This document shows positions 37,301 through 43,779 of a DNA stretch of 64,000 nt, one piece after another. The position numbers and the translations under genes are program-made. Origin of the DNA: Candidatus Methylomirabilia bacterium (GTDB lineage Bacteria > Methylomirabilota > Methylomirabilia > Rokubacteriales > CSP1-6); the NCBI GenBank assembly GCA_041499965.1, contig JBGQLG010000007.1:1647-65646 (forward strand), written 5' to 3'. Below the pieces are notes generated by a model. That model did not search any database and was not told the DNA's origin. It saw only the letters and a list, made by a program, of their open reading frames with translations. Each line of letters opens with the position of its first letter. Within the stretch, counting starts at the first letter, position 1.

Positions 37301-38230
37301 TCAGCCGCGGACGTCGAGCAGGTCGCGCAGGCCGTCGCCGACCAAGTTGATCGCCAGCACCGTCAGCGCCAGGAACATCCCCGGGAACAGGATGATCCAG
37401 AACGCCAGCTGCACGTAGGTCTTGCCCTCGGCCATGATGTTGCCCCACGACGGGATGTGGGGCGGCGTCCCCGCCCCCAGGAACGACAGGTAGGCCTCGA
37501 ACAGGATGGCCGACGCCCCCATGTAGGTGGCCTGTACGACCAGGGGCGCCACCAGCGCCGGCAGGATGTAGCGCACCAGGATCCGCGGCGTGCCGACGCC
37601 CAGCGCCCGCGCCGCCTCCACCATGGTGTGCTCGCGCAGCGAGAGCACGGAGGCGCGCACCACCCGGATCACCCGGGGGATCTCGGGGATCACCAGCGCG
37701 ATGACCACGTTGCGCACGCTGCCCCGCATCATCGCCATCAGCGCCAGCGCCAGGAGGATGGCTGGGATTGCCATGAGGCCGTCCATCACGCGCATCATCA
37801 CCGTGTCGAGCCGCCGGTAGAAGCCGATCACCAGTCCCAGCGCGGTGCCCAGGGCCAGGCTCACCACCGAGACGCAGGCGCCGACCACGAGCGACACGCG
37901 GGCGCCGTACAGCGTGCGCGTGTACACGTCGCGGCCGAAGTGGTCGGAACCGAACCAGTGCGCCGCCGACGGCGGCTGCAGCCGCTGGATCGGCCGCATC
38001 TGCTGAGGATCACCCGTCCACCACAGCGGCGCGAGCACGCCGCTGGCGAAGATCAGCAGCAGCACGACGAGGCCGGCGACGAACGTCGGCTGGCGCGCCA
38101 GGAACCGGCGGGCGCGCGACGCGTCAGCCCCCGGCGATCGACCTGAGCGATCGCCAACCGTTGGCGCGTCAGCGAGGAGCGCCCCGGCTTCGCCGGGGCG
38201 GAACGAAGGTTGGGGGGTGCTGGGGGCCAT
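37301..38230 (-). CDS. ABC peptide-type transporter permease (DppC-like)
   Basis: Track ORF 37301..38491. It contains [17 protein letters not shown] and [11 protein letters not shown]. The only canonical in-frame start upstream of the first TM is ATG 38230, which lies inside repeat copy A1. Confidence 0.75.
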
Positions 38231-38329
38231 GTCGGGGCCCCTGCCCGAGCCCGTCATCGAGGAGCGCCCCGGCTCCGCCGGGGCGTGACGAGCACATGGG
38301 GGGTGTGGGGGGCCATGTCGGGGCCCCCC
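38174..38329. repeat. two tandem copies (A1 38174-38241, A2 38259-38329) of a structured about 70-nt intergenic repeat
   Basis: The unit is GAGGAGCGCCCCGGC-TYC-GCCGGGGCG, then a G-rich spacer, then GGGGGCC-ATGTCGG-GGCCCC. The same unit recurs at 43634-43773. Confidence 0.65.
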
Positions 38330-38330
38330 A

Positions 38331-39881: not shown

Positions 39882-40076
39882 CTACTGAGCCTGGAAGCCC
39901 ACCTTGTTGTGCGTGCCGTCGCAGAACGGCTTCTGCGCCGAGGCGCCGCAGCGGCAGAGTGCGATCTTCGGGCGTCCCGTCGTGTCGACCTTGTTGCCCT
40001 GCGGATCCAGGACCTCGACGTCGTCACCTTCGACCAGGTACGGACCGTTGGGCCTGATGCTGATCTTGACGGCCAT
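39882..40076 (-). CDS. CDGSH iron-sulfur domain-containing protein
   Basis: ATG at 40076 after GAGGAGG. MAVKISIRPNGPYLVEG...ALCRCGASAQKPFCDGTH carries the C-x-C-x2-(S/A)-x8-C-D-G-(S/T)-H signature. Confidence 0.8.
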   Translation of the reverse strand: MAVKISIRPNGPYLVEGDDVEVLDPQGNKVDTTGRPKIALCRCGASAQKPFCDGTHNKVGFQAQ

Positions 40077-40140
40077 CCACGTGCCTCCTCGGAGGGATTG
40101 GAAACCGCCCCACCATAGCACGGCGTTACACTGAGGCCCG

Positions 40141-41640
40141 ATGCGCGAGCCGGGTCGGATCCTCCTCGTCGCTTGCTACGAGCTGGGGCACCAGCCGCTC
40201 GCCGTCGCCTGGCCAGCCGCGTTCCTCGAGCGTGCCGGCTACGCTCCCGCCGTGCTCGACCTCTCGGTCGAGCCGTTTGACGCCGAGAAGATCACGCGCG
40301 CCACCTTCGTCGCCATCTCCGTCCCCATGCACACCGCCCTGCGCCTCGGCGTCATCGCCGCCCAGCGCATCCGCCAGCTCAACCCGATCGCCCACATCTG
40401 CGCCTACGGCCTCTACGCCGCCCTGAATGCGAGCGAGTTGCTCGCCGATGCTTGCGTCGACAGCGTGCTGGCCGGAGAGCTGGAAGATGAGCTGGTCGAG
40501 CTCGTCCGCACAGTGGAGGCCGGGGCGGCGGGCGAGGCGGGGGAGGCTCGCAGAGCGAATGCTGTACTGAGCGAACGAGCCTCGCCCGCCGCCCCGGCCG
40601 TCACTTCGCGCACCGTGCTGGGCAAGCTGAACTTCCCCGTGCCGTCACGCCACGCGCTCCCTGCGCTCAAGCAGTACGCGCACGTCGAGCGCGACGGCCG
40701 GCGCGATCTCGTCGCCTACGCCGAGGCCAGCCGGGGCTGCAAGCACCTGTGCCGTCACTGTCCGATCCCGCCCGTCTACGGCGGCCGCTTCTTCGTCGTG
40801 CCCGTGGAGACCGTGCTGGCCGACGTGCGGCAACAGATTCAGGCCGGCGCGGCCCACGTGACGTTCGGCGATCCAGACTTCCTCAACGGTCCGCGCCACG
40901 CGCTGGCGGTGGCCCGCGCGCTGCACGCCGAGTTCCCGCGGGTGACGTTCGACTTCACCGCGAAGATCGACCATCTGCTGGCCCAGCGCGCACACCTGGC
41001 CGAGCTGGCCGGGCTGGGCGGTGTGTTCGTGGTCTCCGCGGCGGAGTCGCTCGACGACGGCGTGCTCGCGCACCTGGCCAAGGGCCACACGCGCGCGGAC
41101 ATCGTCGAGGCGCTGCGCGTGACCCGCGCGGCCGGTATCGCGCTGCGGCCCACCTGGGTGGCGTTCACGCCGTGGACGACGCTTGGGAGCTACCGGGAGT
41201 GGCTCGATTTCCTGGCCGCCGAGGGGCTGGTGGACCACGTCGACCCCGTGCAGTACGGCATCCGGCTGCTGGTGCCGCCCGGCTCGCTGCTGCTCGACCT
41301 GCCCGCGATGACGCCGCACCTCGGCGGGCTGGTGCCCGGCGGCTTCCACCACCGCTGGACGCACCCCGACCCGCGCGTCGATCGCCTGGCCGAGGAGGTC
41401 GCCGCCGCGGTGGCGGCCGCCGCCGAGCGCGACGAGGACGCCGGCCTGACGTTCGACCGCGTGCGCGGCCTCGCCGCGGCCGCCGCCGGGTCTGTGGCAC
41501 CGCCCTCCGTGGCCCTGGCCAAGGGCCGCCCGCGGCCGCCCCGGCTCACCGAGCCGTGGTTCTGCTGAGCGGAGCCGACCCAGGGCCAGTTGGCCCTGTC
41601 CTTGGCCGGCGATGAATCTATGAGTACACTACCGGTCTGA
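40141..41640 (+). CDS. B12-binding-like/radical SAM protein with CUAEP tail; putative selenoprotein (UGA 41566-41568 read as Sec)
   Basis: 475-aa track ORF with a CxxxCxxC motif (CKHLCRHCP). In-frame read-through of TGA gives ...EPWFC-U-AEP-TQGQLALSLAGDESMSTLPV, ending at TGA 41638-41640. A SECIS-like hairpin lies directly downstream of the UGA. If the TGA is a true stop, the CDS ends at 41568. Confidence 0.65.
41574..41610 (+). promoter_or_regulatory. candidate bacterial SECIS element
   Basis: The lower stem pairs GCCG (41574-41577) with CGGC (41607-41610). The upper 7-bp stem pairs CAGGGCC (41581-41587) with GGCCCTG (41592-41598). The apical loop is AGUU. The loop G-U lies 24-25 nt from the U of UGA. 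Confidence 0.5.
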
Positions 41641-41651
41641 GAGGTGACGCC

Positions 41652-41933
41652 ATGAGCGACGATCTCAAGACGAAGGTACAGGACCTGATCGACACGATGA
41701 TCAACCCGGCCGTCGCCGGTCACGGTGGCTTCGTCGAGCTGATCGACGTGCAGGACAACCGGGTCTACCTGCAGATGGGCGGAGGCTGCCAGGGCTGCGG
41801 CGCCGCCGACGTCACGCTGAAGTCGGGGATCGAGCGCCTCATCAAGGAAGAGCTCCCCGAGGTGGCCGAGGTGCTGGACACCACCGACCACTCCTCCGGC
41901 ACCAACCCCTACTACAGCGCCGGCAAGGCGTAG
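41652..41933 (+). CDS. NifU-like (Nfu C-terminal domain) Fe-S cluster carrier protein
   Basis: 93 aa after GAGAGGTGA. HGGFVELIDV...LQMGGGCQGCGAADVTLK carries the CxxC Nfu motif. Confidence 0.85.
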   Translation: MSDDLKTKVQDLIDTMINPAVAGHGGFVELIDVQDNRVYLQMGGGCQGCGAADVTLKSGIERLIKEELPEVAEVLDTTDHSSGTNPYYSAGKA

Positions 41934-41961: not shown

Positions 41962-43191
41962 ATGGACCGGCTGCTCCTCCTCCTGCCGACGACGACGTAC
42001 CGGACCGAGGACTTCCTCGCCGCCGCGCGCACGCTCGGCGTCGACATCGTCTGCGCCTCCGAGAAGCCCAGCACGTTCGAGGCCCACGCGCCCGATCATC
42101 TCCTGACGCTCGACTTCACCGATCCCGACGCGGCCGCGGCCAAGGTGGCCGAGCTGGCCGGCCGGCGCCCCCTGAACGCGGTGGTCGGCGTCGACGACCT
42201 GACCACCGTCGCGGCCGCCGCCATCGCCGAGCGCCTCGGCCTGCGCAGCAGCGCCCTGGCCGCGGTGACGGCCGCGCGTGACAAGTACCAGATGCGCCAG
42301 TGCCTGGCCGCCGCCGGCGTGCCGATCCCGCGCTTCCGTCGCATCGCGCTGAAGGACGATCCGTTCCTGGCCGCGCGCGGCGTCGCCTTCCCCTGCGTGC
42401 TCAAGCCGCTGGCGCTCTCGGCCAGCCGCGGCGTGATCCGCGCCAACAACGTCGATCAGTTCATCGCCGCCTTCCGCCGCATCGCCGCGCTCCTGCAGCG
42501 CGACGACGTGGAGGTGAGCGGCGACGCCGCCCAGTTCCTGCTCGCCGAGCAATACCTGCCCGGCGTCGAGGTAGCGCTCGAGGGCCTGCTGGTCGGCAAC
42601 ACGCTGCACACGCTGGCGCTGTTCGACAAGCCCGATCCGCTCGAGGGGCCCTTCTTCGAGGAGACGATCTACATCACACCCTGCCGCCTGCCCGCCGACG
42701 TGCAGCAGGCGATCGAGCGGGTGACGGCCACGGCCTGCGCCGGGCTCGGCCTCGGCGAGGGGCCCGTGCACGCCGAGCTGCGCGTGAACGACGCGGGCCC
42801 GTGGGTGCTGGAAGTCGCCGCGCGCTCGATCGGCGGGCTCTGCTCGCGCACGCTGCGCTTCGGCACCGGGATGACGCTCGAGGAGATCATCCTCCGGCAC
42901 GCGCTGGGCTGGCCGATCGCCTCGCTGGCGCGCGAGCGCCGGCCGGCCGGGGTGATGATGATCCCGATCCCGCGGGCCGGACGGTTGCAGGCGGTGCACG
43001 GCACCGAGGCGGCCGCCGCCGTGACCGGCATCGAGGAAGTCGCGATCACCGCCCACGTCGGCCAGGAGCTCGTCCCGCTTCCCGAGGGTTGGCAGTATCT
43101 CGGCTTCGTCTTCGCCCGCGCCGACACGCCCGACGCTGTCGAGGCGGCCCTGCGCGACGCCCACGCCCGCCTCACCTTCGAGATCCGGTAG
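41962..43191 (+). CDS. ATP-grasp domain protein (L-amino-acid/carboxylate-amine ligase-like)
   Basis: 409 aa. DKYQMRQCLAAAGVPIPRF, FPCVLKPLALSASRGV, LAEQYLPGVEVALEGL and GPVHAELRV are ATP-grasp_4-type motifs. Confidence 0.8.
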   Translation: MDRLLLLLPTTTYRTEDFLAAARTLGVDIVCASEKPSTFEAHAPDHLLTLDFTDPDAAAAKVAELAGRRPLNAVVGVDDLTTVAAAAIAERLGLRSSALAAVTAARDKYQMRQCLAAAGVPIPRFRRIALKDDPFLAARGVAFPCVLKPLALSASRGVIRANNVDQFIAAFRRIAALLQRDDVEVSGDAAQFLLAEQYLPGVEVALEGLLVGNTLHTLALFDKPDPLEGPFFEETIYITPCRLPADVQQAIERVTATACAGLGLGEGPVHAELRVNDAGPWVLEVAARSIGGLCSRTLRFGTGMTLEEIILRHALGWPIASLARERRPAGVMMIPIPRAGRLQAVHGTEAAAAVTGIEEVAITAHVGQELVPLPEGWQYLGFVFARADTPDAVEAALRDAHARLTFEIR

Positions 43192-43621: not shown

Positions 43622-43633
43622 GCAACTGATGTC

Positions 43634-43773
43634 GAGGGGCGCCACGGCTCGGCCGTGGCGCCCCGAGCGGGGGGCCATGCCGGGGCCACACCAGCGTCGC
43701 AGAGGAGCGCCGCGGCGTGGCCGCGGCGTGACGAACGTCGGGGGGGGGGTGGGGGGCCATGTCGGGGCCCCCC
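43634..43773. repeat. two tandem copies (B0 43634-43688 degenerate, B 43702-43773) of the structured repeat also found at 38174-38329
   Basis: Copy B reads GAGGAGCGCCGCGGC-GTG-GCCGCGGCGTGACGAACGTCGGGGGGGGGTGGGGGGCCATGTCGGGGCCCCCC. It fills the gap between convergent genes. Confidence 0.65.
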
Positions 43774-43779
43774 ATGTTG

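What the first reader, a model, noticed from the sequence alone, without database searches (positions are those of the whole stretch)
40141..41640. Probable selenoprotein: radical SAM enzyme with an in-frame UGA giving a Cys-Sec-Ala-Glu-Pro tail, plus a SECIS-like hairpin
- Seen in sequence: the ORF track ends this radical SAM ORF at TGA 41566-41568, right after ...PRLTEPWFC.
- Continuing in the same frame gives U-A-E-P-T-Q-G-Q-L-A-L-S-L-A-G-D-E-S-M-S-T-L-P-V. The next stop is at 41638-41640, 11 nt before the nifU-like start.
- Immediately 3' of the UGA is an interrupted stem-loop. Its lower stem is 41574-41577/41607-41610, its upper 7-bp stem is 41581-41587/41592-41598, and its apical loop is AGUU.
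- The loop G and U lie 24-25 nt from the U of UGA. This is essentially the geometry of the E. coli fdhF SECIS, where G23/U24 contact SelB.
- Established knowledge (from recall): a protein family named 'CUAEP/CCAEP-tail radical SAM (seleno)protein' exists, in which the residue after the tail Cys is Sec or Cys.
- Inference: the gene is mis-truncated by standard ORF calling, and the redox-active Cys-Sec pair is part of the enzyme.
Basis: partly seen in the sequence, partly recalled or inferred. Interest (0 to 1): 0.85.

Follow-up and report, generated by a model that had tools for sequence, protein, structure and literature searches.

The report
Known radical SAM selenoprotein, mis-truncated
This gene encodes a radical SAM enzyme whose apparent stop codon almost certainly encodes selenocysteine, but it belongs to a selenoprotein family that NCBI has already named, so it is a correct and unsurprising finding.

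Summary
ORF 40141-41568 ends ...EPWFC at TGA 41566-68. The same frame continues U-AEPTQGQL... to TGA 41638-40. A 7-bp hairpin with loop AGUU lies 15 nt after the UGA.

- The protein scores 651 bits (cut-off 500) against NCBIfam NF040546, "CUAEP/CCAEP-tail radical SAM (seleno)protein". The match runs through the tail.
- In 74 orthologous loci from about ten phyla, the codon after ...WFC is TGA in 55 and TGC/TGT in 19. AEPTxxQ[LF] is conserved in frame in both groups.
- The hairpin sits at a fixed offset in 50 of 55 TGA loci and in 1 of 19 Cys loci. Compensatory changes support its stem.
- Its geometry is within 1 nt of the E. coli fdhF SECIS.

Not tested: selA/B/C/D in this genome (none lie in the window) and actual selenium incorporation.

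Novelty is low. The family is already named as a selenoprotein (Haft & Gwadz), though its function is unknown.

New here:
- The closest characterised relative is ArsL (35% identity), whose Cys-rich tail holds As(III).
- The gene travels across phyla with an Nfu or YggX gene and an L-amino-acid-ligase-like ATP-grasp gene.

This suggests, but does not show, an ArsL-like 3-amino-3-carboxypropyl transfer onto something held by the Cys-Sec tail.

The parts
40141..41640 (+). Full coding sequence of the CUAEP-tail radical SAM selenoprotein: 499 codons including Sec476, with the true stop at TGA 41638-41640.
   Evidence: ORF and read-through frame. NF040546 scores 651 bits with the tail included. Close Rokubacteria orthologues keep the same frame and end at a similar second stop, for example L018 *AEPTQGQLALSLAGGESVGTLPV*.
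40738..40761 (+). Radical SAM CxxxCxxC motif (C200-K-H-L-C204-R-H-C207), the ligands of the SAM-cleaving [4Fe-4S] cluster.
   Evidence: Pfam PF04055 hit. C200, C204 and C207 are invariant in family alignments.
41539..41592 (+). Conserved C-terminal tail motif P-R-L-T-E-P-W-F-C-U-A-E-P-T-Q-G-Q-L. It lies at the end of the C-terminal extension that ArsL lacks (residues about 431-466).
   Evidence: Position-by-position conservation in 56 Sec and 19 Cys forms. The tail is modelled with pLDDT of about 81-87 in the AF2 model of Cys-form homologue P0125.
41563..41565 (+). Codon TGC for Cys475, the invariant partner of the Sec residue.
   Evidence: Cys in 75 of 75 forms examined. Invariant in alignments.
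41566..41568 (+). In-frame UGA, read as selenocysteine (Sec476).
   Evidence: The aligned codon is TGA in 55 loci and TGC/TGT in 19. The downstream frame is conserved. The SECIS-like hairpin follows.
41581..41598 (+). SECIS-like hairpin: 7-bp stem 41581-87 / 41592-98 and apical loop AGUU 41588-91 (G24 and U25 counted from the U of UGA).
   Evidence: MFE fold. Same offset in 50 of 55 TGA orthologues against 1 of 19 Cys forms. Compensatory changes in 4 of 7 pairs and 6 of 7 pairs. Geometry within 1 nt of E. coli fdhF.
41574..41606 (+). Possible lower stem around the hairpin (41574-78 / 41602-06 in the MFE fold). It is specific to this lineage and not conserved.
   Evidence: for this sequence. 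Orthologue folds differ here.
41652..41933 (+). Nfu-type Fe-S carrier gene (93 aa, CQGC motif). It is probably co-transcribed with the radical SAM gene.
   Evidence: [quoted passage not shown] A homologue lies next to the radical SAM gene in 33 of 80 loci. No terminator-like site lies between the genes.
41962..43191 (+). ATP-grasp enzyme of the L-amino-acid-ligase type (409 aa), a conserved partner gene.
   Evidence: PF13535, PF18603 (LAL_C2) and PF18130. Best solved relative is 3vot, L-amino acid ligase BL00235, at 4e-36. It lies within 4 kb of the radical SAM gene in 33 of 80 loci, and in 20 of the 39 loci with full flanks, across several phyla and in varying order.
39882..40121 (-). CDGSH iron-sulfur protein gene, divergently transcribed. 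It is a neighbour only within the Rokubacteria lineage.
   Evidence: PF09360 at 1.6e-19. It sits upstream in 9 Rokubacteria/Methylomirabilota loci only.

Best explanation
The gene at 40141-41640 encodes a 499-residue radical SAM enzyme of the CUAEP/CCAEP-tail family (NCBIfam NF040546). Standard gene callers cut it at UGA 41566.

Decoding (inferred from comparative evidence):
- The UGA is read as selenocysteine.
- The hairpin 41581-41598 lies inside the remaining coding sequence and puts an AGUU loop 23-26 nt from the UGA.
- It acts as a bacterial SECIS. It recruits SelB with Sec-tRNA(Sec) to the paused ribosome.
- Translation then continues for 23 more codons to UGA 41638.
- The product carries a vicinal Cys475-Sec476 pair inside the invariant motif W-F-C-U-A-E-P-T-x-x-Q. 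This motif ends a C-terminal extension that ArsL lacks (residues about 431-466).

Enzymology (inferred from homology, not shown):
- The enzyme is the sister family of ArsL.
- In ArsL the CxxxCxxC-bound [4Fe-4S] cluster cleaves SAM to give a 3-amino-3-carboxypropyl (ACP) radical or organometallic species.
- In ArsL the C-terminal CCxxC tail holds the As(III) acceptor.
- By analogy, I propose that the Cys-Sec tail is an arm that holds a soft acceptor atom, or is itself the acceptor, and presents it to the SAM-derived radical.
- The Nfu (or, in other phyla, YggX) partner would supply or repair the Fe-S cluster.
- The L-amino-acid-ligase-type ATP-grasp partner would then condense the amino-acid product with another amino acid.

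My probabilities: about 0.9 for Sec decoding, and about 0.35 for the ArsL-like ACP-transfer and binding-tail mechanism.
For: Decoding:
- NF040546 scores 651.4 bits (cut-off 500) through the tail, and 631.3 bits without it.
- All 120 closest database proteins stop at ...EPWFC.
- More distant homologues read ...W[FY]CCAEPTxxQ.
- In 74 genomic loci the codon is TGA in 55, TGC in 14 and TGT in 5, with AEPTxxQ[LF] in frame after it. The tail is never shorter than 10 residues.
- The hairpin is at a fixed offset in 50 of 55 Sec loci and 1 of 19 Cys loci (p = 8e-12).
- Local folding energy averages -11.7 kcal/mol in Sec loci against -5.3 in Cys loci (p = 1.6e-8).
- In the 33-sequence group, 87.4% of cells pair. 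Shuffles give 71.3 +/- 1.6% and slid registers at most 54.5%. Six of 7 pairs carry compensatory changes.
- In the window's own group, 92.9% of cells pair and 4 of 7 pairs carry compensatory changes.
- The fdhF loop has G23 and U24; this loop has G24 and U25.
- 27 of 55 likely genes in the window end in TGA, so UGA is an ordinary stop in this organism.
- Sec use is documented in Methylomirabilota and in the other phyla that carry TGA forms (PMC13188914; PMC13582414).
- Haft & Gwadz list this family as a CU-motif selenoprotein (bioRxiv 10.1101/2022.07.06.499078).

Enzymology:
- The second-best model is ArsL, NF040542, at 301 bits.
- The protein is 35% identical over about 430 residues to P0253, which passes the ArsL cut-off and ends KRCCIKC.
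- The ArsL tail binds As(III) and is needed for C-As bond formation but not for SAM cleavage (10.1101/2024.02.01.577332; 10.64898/2026.04.29.721666).
- The only invariant cysteines are the three cluster ligands and C475, so no auxiliary-cluster motif is present.
- The Nfu, YggX and ATP-grasp partners are conserved across phyla.
- No terminator-like site lies within the rSAM-nfu-ATP-grasp stretch.
- In the AF2 model of a Cys-form homologue, the tail has pLDDT of about 81-87, so it is predicted as ordered rather than floppy.
Against: - No selA, selB, selD or tRNA-Sec lies in the 64-kb window, and the rest of the genome could not be examined.
- No Rfam family matches the hairpin.
- The hairpin lacks the bulged U of the fdhF SECIS.
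- The loop sequence CAG-UUG is also constrained by the conserved Gln-Leu/Phe of the protein. Conservation of the loop bases alone therefore proves nothing.
- For the mechanism, the protein fails the ArsL model cut-off (301 bits against 450).
- The tail has two, not three, thiol or selenol ligands.
- No arsM-like methyltransferase or arsenic-resistance gene is among the conserved neighbours.
- The family's wide distribution, and its pairing with Fe-S housekeeping genes, could mean a quite different substrate.
- No biochemical data exist for any member.
Confidence: 0.85

Rival explanations
1. The UGA is decoded as Sec, but the Cys-Sec pair is a redox centre rather than a substrate holder. It would form a selenenylsulfide on a mobile C-terminal arm, like the Gly-Cys-Sec-Gly tail of mammalian thioredoxin reductase. 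It would either deliver electrons to the active site or resolve a radical or oxidised intermediate.
For: - A vicinal Cys-Sec pair near the C-terminus sits at the end of a C-terminal extension.
- Sec/Cys interchange is typical of redox-active sites (stated in PMC13582414).
- The neighbours are Fe-S or redox-type proteins: CDGSH, Nfu and YggX.
- The thioredoxin reductase analogy is from established knowledge.
Against: - The closest characterised homologue uses its Cys-rich tail to bind substrate, not for redox.
- Haft & Gwadz note that the CU dipeptide is rare and is otherwise found in proteins of organometallic chemistry: MerB-like, HgcA and MerT.
- No thioredoxin-like or reductase partner is conserved next to the gene.
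Confidence: 0.3
2. The UGA is a true stop. The enzyme would end at Cys475, and the downstream hairpin and conserved bases would serve something else, such as mRNA stability or translational coupling to the nfu gene.
For: - Gene callers and databases annotate all close homologues as ending at ...WFC.
- The hairpin lies in front of the nfu gene.
- Sec machinery was not demonstrated for this genome.
Against: - The residues after the UGA (AEPTxxQ[LF]) match, in frame, the residues that follow Cys-Cys in homologues with no stop there.
- The extension keeps its frame in 55 TGA loci from many phyla, whether or not nfu follows.
- The tail adds 20 bits to the family score.
- The hairpin is absent from the Cys forms.
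- There is no U-tract terminator.
Confidence: 0.04
3. The UGA is recoded through SelB and the hairpin, but as cysteine rather than selenocysteine. The carrier would be a tRNA of the 'ReC' (selC*) type, so the product would be a CCAEP protein made from a TGA gene.
For: - Such tRNAs are discussed for phyla that overlap this family's range (PMC13582414).
- The Cys and Sec forms are evidently interchangeable in evolution.
Against: - No such tRNA is in the window.
- This is a rare mechanism.
- Nothing here argues for it over ordinary Sec insertion.
- Methylomirabilota are reported to have large selenoproteomes (PMC13188914).
Confidence: 0.04

Closest known systems
NCBIfam NF040546, 'CUAEP/CCAEP-tail radical SAM (seleno)protein'. 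It is mentioned as an uncharacterised CU-motif selenoprotein by Haft & Gwadz (bioRxiv 10.1101/2022.07.06.499078; J Bacteriol 2023).
   Same: - Full-length match above the curated cut-off.
- CxxxCxxC motif present.
- C-terminal W-F-C-U-A-E-P motif present.
- UGA aligns with Cys of other members.
- Close homologues in NCBI already carry this name in Methylomirabilota.
   Different: - Nothing essential differs.
- This copy has a lineage-specific 13-residue extension after the conserved tail.
- It also has a variable palindrome-encoded insert at residues about 128-150.
- This exact protein (P0001) is named in the databases only as a truncated 'YgiQ-family radical SAM enzyme'.
ArsL (NF040542, RCCLKC-tail radical SAM protein), the C-As bond-forming enzyme of arsinothricin biosynthesis.
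   Same: - 35% identity over about 430 residues.
- Same domain order: B12-binding-like N-domain, then the radical SAM core with CxxxCxxC.
- A vicinal Cys-Cys(Sec) pair on a C-terminal tail.
   Different: - It scores below the ArsL cut-off (301 bits against 450).
- The tail is C-U/C-A-E-P-T..Q rather than R-C-C-L-K-C, so it offers two ligands instead of three.
- The tail follows a much longer C-terminal stretch than in ArsL.
- There are no arsM or arsQ neighbours. The partners are Nfu or YggX and an ATP-grasp ligase.
- The substrate is unknown.
E. coli fdhF SECIS, the archetypal bacterial selenocysteine insertion element.
   Same: - A hairpin lies inside the coding sequence directly 3' of the UGA.
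- The apical loop has 4 nt with G-U at nt 24-25, against nt 23-24 in fdhF.
   Different: - The stem is a perfect 7-bp G+C-rich helix without the bulged U.
- The loop is AGUU, not GGUC.
- No Rfam model matches.
- SelB binding was not tested.
C-terminal Gly-Cys-Sec-Gly redox tail of mammalian thioredoxin reductase (established knowledge).
   Same: An adjacent Cys-Sec pair sits near the C-terminus on what may be a mobile arm.
   Different: - The fold is unrelated (a flavoprotein).
- That Sec is penultimate, and its SECIS is a eukaryotic 3'-UTR element.
- Here the tail continues with a strictly conserved AEPTxxQ motif.
Other CU-dipeptide selenoproteins: MerB-like SAO-locus proteins, HgcA and MerT variants (Haft & Gwadz).
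   Same: They share the rare Cys-Sec dipeptide, which the literature links to organometallic or soft-metal chemistry.
   Different: The protein folds are unrelated, and no shared gene neighbourhood was seen here.

Membership tests
NF040546 CUAEP/CCAEP-tail radical SAM (seleno)protein | Whole-protein HMM score at or above the curated cut-off (500 bits) | tested here: met
   651.4 bits with the tail, covering profile positions 1-467 of 468. 631.3 bits for the truncated ORF.
NF040546 CUAEP/CCAEP-tail radical SAM (seleno)protein | Radical SAM CxxxCxxC cluster motif | tested here: met
   C200-x3-C204-x2-C207 at 40738-40761. PF04055 hit. Invariant in alignments.
NF040546 CUAEP/CCAEP-tail radical SAM (seleno)protein | C-terminal tail motif C-[U/C]-A-E-P | tested here: met
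   ...W-F-C-U-A-E-P-T at 41557-41580. The same motif occurs in 56 Sec and 19 Cys forms.
Bacterial selenoprotein (general criteria) | In-frame UGA aligned with Cys in homologues, with the downstream frame conserved | tested here: met
   55 TGA, 14 TGC and 5 TGT. AEPTxxQ[LF] is in frame in all of them.
Bacterial selenoprotein (general criteria) | SECIS hairpin just 3' of the UGA, conserved and supported by covariation | tested here: met
   Present in 50 of 55 Sec loci against 1 of 19 Cys loci. Compensatory changes occur in 6 of 7 and 4 of 7 stem pairs.
Bacterial selenoprotein (general criteria) | Genome encodes selA, selB, selC (tRNA-Sec) and selD | not testable with these tools
   None lie in the 64-kb window, and the rest of the genome is not available. 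The only support is indirect: Sec use is reported in Methylomirabilota (PMC13188914, PMC13582414).
Bacterial selenoprotein (general criteria) | Selenium is actually incorporated at the UGA position | not testable with these tools
   This needs 75Se labelling or mass spectrometry.
fdhF-type SECIS | Apical loop presents G-U about 23-24 nt from the U of UGA | tested here: met
   G24 and U25 here, against G23 and U24 in E. coli fdhF read from NC_000913.3.
fdhF-type SECIS | Bulged U in the upper stem (established knowledge of the fdhF element) | tested here: not met
   The stem 41581-87 / 41592-98 is a perfect 7-bp helix.
ArsL (NF040542) | HMM score at or above the curated cut-off (450 bits) | tested here: not met
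   301.5 bits. True ArsL-type proteins P0253 and P0231 score 516 and 477 bits.
ArsL (NF040542) | C-terminal R-C-C-L-K-C tail (three Cys) | tested here: not met
   The tail is W-F-C-U-A-E-P, and no third Cys is conserved.
ArsL (NF040542) | Gene context with arsM or arsQ | tested here: not met
   The conserved neighbour families are Nfu, ATP-grasp, YggX, a formyltransferase-like protein, DUF169, an ABC ATPase and an MFS transporter. None of the neighbour families annotated with Pfam is a methyltransferase.
ArsL (NF040542) | SAM cleaved at the C(gamma)-S bond to give an ACP radical plus MTA | not testable with these tools
   This needs an enzyme assay.

The most novel reading that the evidence does not exclude
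The CUAEP family would be a second, much more widespread branch of ArsL-type 'non-canonical' radical SAM enzymes.
- It would transfer the 3-amino-3-carboxypropyl group of SAM onto a soft atom held by, or belonging to, the Cys-Sec tail. Candidates are a metalloid or a chalcogen such as Se or S.
- This would make a methionine- or glutamate-like non-proteinogenic amino acid.
- The conserved L-amino-acid-ligase partner would then turn this product into a dipeptide.

That would be a new carbon-heteroatom bond-forming pathway, present in Rokubacteria, Acidobacteriota, Chloroflexota, Planctomycetota, Nitrospirota and others. Sec would serve as a substrate-handling residue rather than a redox residue.
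Probability: 0.2. Interest if true: 0.7.

Novelty: already known. Interest (0 to 1): 0.3.

Why it matters
For annotation:
- This gene, and all 120 nearest database entries examined, are recorded as proteins that stop at Cys475.
- They therefore lose the residue most likely to matter for catalysis.
- The conserved hairpin described here gives a simple rule for calling the full-length product.

For biology:
- The family is widespread in uncultured soil and groundwater phyla and has no known function.
- Three observations narrow the experiments that would reveal what it makes. They are its sister relationship to ArsL, its conserved L-amino-acid-ligase partner, and its Nfu or YggX partner.
- None of this changes the fact that its status as a selenoprotein is already on record.

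Tried and rejected
- Rfam at gathering thresholds on the whole window, and at permissive E-values on 41450-41750, found no SECIS or other RNA family. It returned only chance-level hits.
- ARAGORN found no tRNA in the window and no tRNA-Sec in the 80 related loci.
- tblastn with E. coli SelA, SelB and SelD found nothing in the window. In the related loci it found only selD, in two Blastocatellia loci.
- I scanned the window for other in-frame TGA codons flanked by coding-like GC3 on both sides. It found only ordinary adjacent genes and no second selenoprotein candidate.
- A terminator or attenuator reading of the hairpin was rejected. There is no U-tract and no terminator-like site, the hairpin is absent from Cys forms, and the frame downstream is conserved.
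- Genome-wide UGA reassignment was rejected, because about half of the likely genes end in TGA.
I modelled a Cys-form homologue instead.
- The PDB holds no ArsL-like structure. The nearest folds are AprD4, OxsB and TsrM, which say nothing about the tail.
- The paper PMC12013261 (Haft & Tolstoy 2025) is not in the library.
- I could not identify the source organism beyond a JGI metagenome contig.
Full report
**1. What is in the sequence**

- ATG 40141 opens a 475-codon ORF with strong coding-type composition (GC3 = 0.92).
- The ORF ends ...P-R-L-T-E-P-W-F-C at TGA 41566-41568.
- The same frame continues A-E-P-T-Q-G-Q-L-A-L-S-L-A-G-D-E-S-M-S-T-L-P-V to TGA 41638-41640.
- That second stop is 11 nt before the ATG of a 93-residue NifU-domain ORF.
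- The RNA from the UGA folds into a 7-bp stem (41581-87 / 41592-98) with loop AGUU. The MFE is -25.2 kcal/mol, z = -2.15 against dinucleotide shuffles.
No lower stem recurs in orthologues.
- I read the E. coli fdhF SECIS from the K-12 genome for comparison. Its loop GGUC occupies nt 22-25 from the U of UGA. The loop here occupies nt 23-26, so G-U sits at 24-25 instead of 23-24.

**2. Family membership**

- With Sec written as Cys, the protein scores 651.4 bits against NCBIfam NF040546, 'CUAEP/CCAEP-tail radical SAM (seleno)protein' (curated cut-off 500).
- The alignment covers profile positions 1-467 of 468, so it runs through the tail.
- The truncated ORF scores 631.3 bits and stops at profile position 457.
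- Pfam finds the radical SAM domain and a sub-threshold B12-binding-like N-domain.

**3. Is the UGA read through?**

Protein databases:
- All 120 closest proteins (69-100% identity) end in ...EPWFC.
- At the 50%-identity level, many homologues end at ...W[FY]C. Many others continue ...W[FY]C-C-A-E-P-T-x-x-Q.

DNA of 80 genomic loci from GTDB species representatives:
- The loci come from Methylomirabilota/Rokubacteria, Gemmatimonadales, Blastocatellia, Planctomycetota, Chloroflexota, Nitrospirota, Poribacteria, Myxococcota and others.
- 74 of the loci reach the site.
- The codon after ...WFC is TGA in 55, TGC in 14 and TGT in 5.
- In every case the next residues in frame are A/S-E-P-T-x-x-Q-[LFIV].
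- The tail after Sec is never shorter than 10 residues.
- Within Rokubacteria the extension keeps its frame to a second stop about 20 codons later. The closest relative L018 reads *AEPTQGQLALSLAGGESVGTLPV*.

Conclusions:
- Conservation of an amino-acid motif across a stop codon, with Cys in its place in a quarter of the family, is the standard comparative signature of a selenoprotein.
- About half of the likely genes in the window end in TGA. UGA is therefore an ordinary stop here, and the recoding is local.

**4. The hairpin**

- Nearly all the TGA loci fold a hairpin at the same offset.
- It occurs in two registers: loop AGUU pairing nt 16-22 with 27-33, or loop AGUUN pairing nt 16-22 with 28-34.
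- Five or more contiguous pairs at that site occur in 50 of 55 Sec loci and 1 of 19 Cys loci (Fisher p = 8e-12).
- Local folding energy averages -11.7 kcal/mol in Sec loci against -5.3 in Cys loci (Mann-Whitney p = 1.6e-8).

| Group | Cells paired | Shuffled letters | Best slid register | Pairs with compensatory change |
|---|---|---|---|---|
| 33 sequences, 5-nt loop | 87.4% | 71.3 +/- 1.6% | 54.5% | 6 of 7 |
| 18 sequences, 4-nt loop (includes the window) | 92.9% | 85.4 +/- 1.9% | 58.7% | 4 of 7 |

- In the 33-sequence group, 45 cells are changed on both sides, against 15.9 +/- 3.3 in shuffles.
- Arm variants include GGGCC/GGCCC, GGGAC/GGUCC, GAGCC/GGCUC, GGGUC/GACCC and CUGGUC/GACCGG.
- These changes alter the encoded residues: E-G...A-L, R-D...G-P, E-S...G-S, E-G...D-P. 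The protein sequence in this stretch therefore bends to keep the RNA paired.
- In Cys forms the same positions vary freely.
- The loop bases are also fixed by the conserved Gln-Leu/Phe, so they carry no independent weight.
- No Rfam model matches. The stem lacks the bulged U of fdhF.
- I conclude that the hairpin is a SECIS. SelB binding was not tested.

**5. What could not be tested**

- The window has no tRNA and no selA, selB or selD homologue.
- The source is a JGI metagenome contig, and the rest of the genome is out of reach.
- Indirect support comes from the literature. A Methylomirabilota MAG is predicted to hold 63 selenoprotein genes (PMC13188914). Sec-type hydrogenases are reported from Methylomirabilota, Acidobacteriota, Chloroflexota and Poribacteria (PMC13582414). 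These are the same phyla that carry TGA forms here.

**6. What the enzyme may do**

Relationship to ArsL:
- The second-best family model is ArsL (NF040542) at 301 bits, below its cut-off.
- The protein is 35% identical over about 430 residues to P0253. P0253 passes the ArsL cut-off and ends KRCCIKC.
- ArsL has a canonical CxxxCxxC motif but cleaves SAM to an ACP radical. Its C-terminal CCxxC tail binds As(III) and is required for C-As bond formation, not for SAM cleavage.

Features of this family:
- The only invariant cysteines are the three cluster ligands and Cys475. An auxiliary cluster is therefore unlikely.
- The Cys-Sec pair sits in an invariant 17-residue motif at the end of a C-terminal extension that ArsL lacks.
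- An AlphaFold model of a Cys-form homologue has mean pLDDT 92.8. It places the tail with pLDDT of about 81-87, so the tail is predicted as ordered.
- The nearest solved folds are AprD4, OxsB and TsrM. No ArsL structure exists for comparison.

Gene context across phyla:

| Neighbour gene | Loci (of 80) | Note |
|---|---|---|
| Nfu-type carrier | 33 | next to the radical SAM gene, usually just downstream |
| YggX iron-trafficking (PF04362) | 21 | immediately upstream in Chloroflexota and Myxococcota |
| ATP-grasp, L-amino-acid-ligase type | 33 | 20 of the 39 loci with full flanks; order and orientation vary |

- The ATP-grasp's best solved relative is BL00235, 3vot, at 4e-36.
- No terminator-like site separates the three genes in the window.
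- No methyltransferase or arsenic gene is among the conserved neighbours.

Working model, at about 0.35 probability:
- The enzyme performs ArsL-like ACP transfer onto something held by the Cys-Sec tail.
- Nfu or YggX maintains the Fe-S cluster.
- The ligase processes the amino-acid product.

**7. Comparison with what is known, and verdict**

- The family is in NCBIfam under a name that states the Sec/Cys alternation.
- NCBI already labels Methylomirabilota homologues with that name.
- Haft & Gwadz cite it as an uncharacterised CU-motif selenoprotein.
- A full-text search for 'CUAEP' found no other relevant paper.
- The selenoprotein call is therefore correct but already known.
- Added here are the SECIS description with covariation, the Sec-versus-Cys contrast, the ArsL relationship and the conserved partner genes. 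These are hypotheses for function, not discoveries of a new kind of system.
- Interest is about 0.3.

Noticed in passing
window 38164-38330 and 43624-43774: An intergenic repeat of about 85 nt occurs as a tandem pair at each of two sites. Each unit has a G+C-rich palindrome (GCGCCCCGGC...GCCGGGGCG) followed by a G-run motif (GGGGGGTG.GGGGGCCATGTCGGGGCCCC). blastn finds the same family in Rokubacteria loci L004, L006, L009 and L010, so it is a lineage-wide REP- or MITE-like element.
   Followed up: partly
window 40504-40613 (inside the radical SAM gene): An inverted repeat with 35-nt arms (86% complementary, 40 nt apart) encodes the insert ...GEAGEARRANAVLSERASP... between the B12-like and radical SAM domains. 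The insert is present in some close orthologues (P0002, P0005) and absent from others (P0004, P0010, P0013). It looks like an in-frame palindromic insertion in a tolerant linker.
   Followed up: partly
L048 1966-2991 (-) and L030 3995-4912 (-): In two Blastocatellia genomes a selD (selenophosphate synthetase) homologue lies directly upstream of, and divergent from, the ATP-grasp and radical SAM gene pair. L030 is a Cys (TGC) form. This may be coincidence or may hint at a selenium link beyond Sec insertion.
   Followed up: partly
L003-L082 (flanks of the radical SAM gene): The radical SAM gene has either an Nfu-type gene or a YggX gene beside it, depending on phylum. The Nfu-type gene is seen in Methylomirabilota, Acidobacteriota, Planctomycetota and Gemmatimonadota. 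The YggX gene (PF04362) is seen in Chloroflexota and Myxococcota. A formyltransferase-like gene (16 loci), DUF169 (9 loci) and an ATG22-like MFS transporter (6 loci) also recur.
   Followed up: partly
L016 3957-4000 and L072 11366-11410: Two Cys-form loci still show the hairpin. L016 (TGT) has it with one mismatch. L072 (TGC) has an 11-bp helix at the same offset. They are candidates for recent Sec-to-Cys switches.
   Followed up: no
L079 (Ktedonosporobacter rubrisoli SCAWS-G2, complete genome) and L074 (Dictyobacter arantiisoli): Cultured Ktedonobacteria carry the family. K. rubrisoli has the TGA form, with a weakened hairpin and a tail ending *AEPTADQLAP*. D. arantiisoli has the TGC form. 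These strains would allow direct experiments.
   Followed up: no
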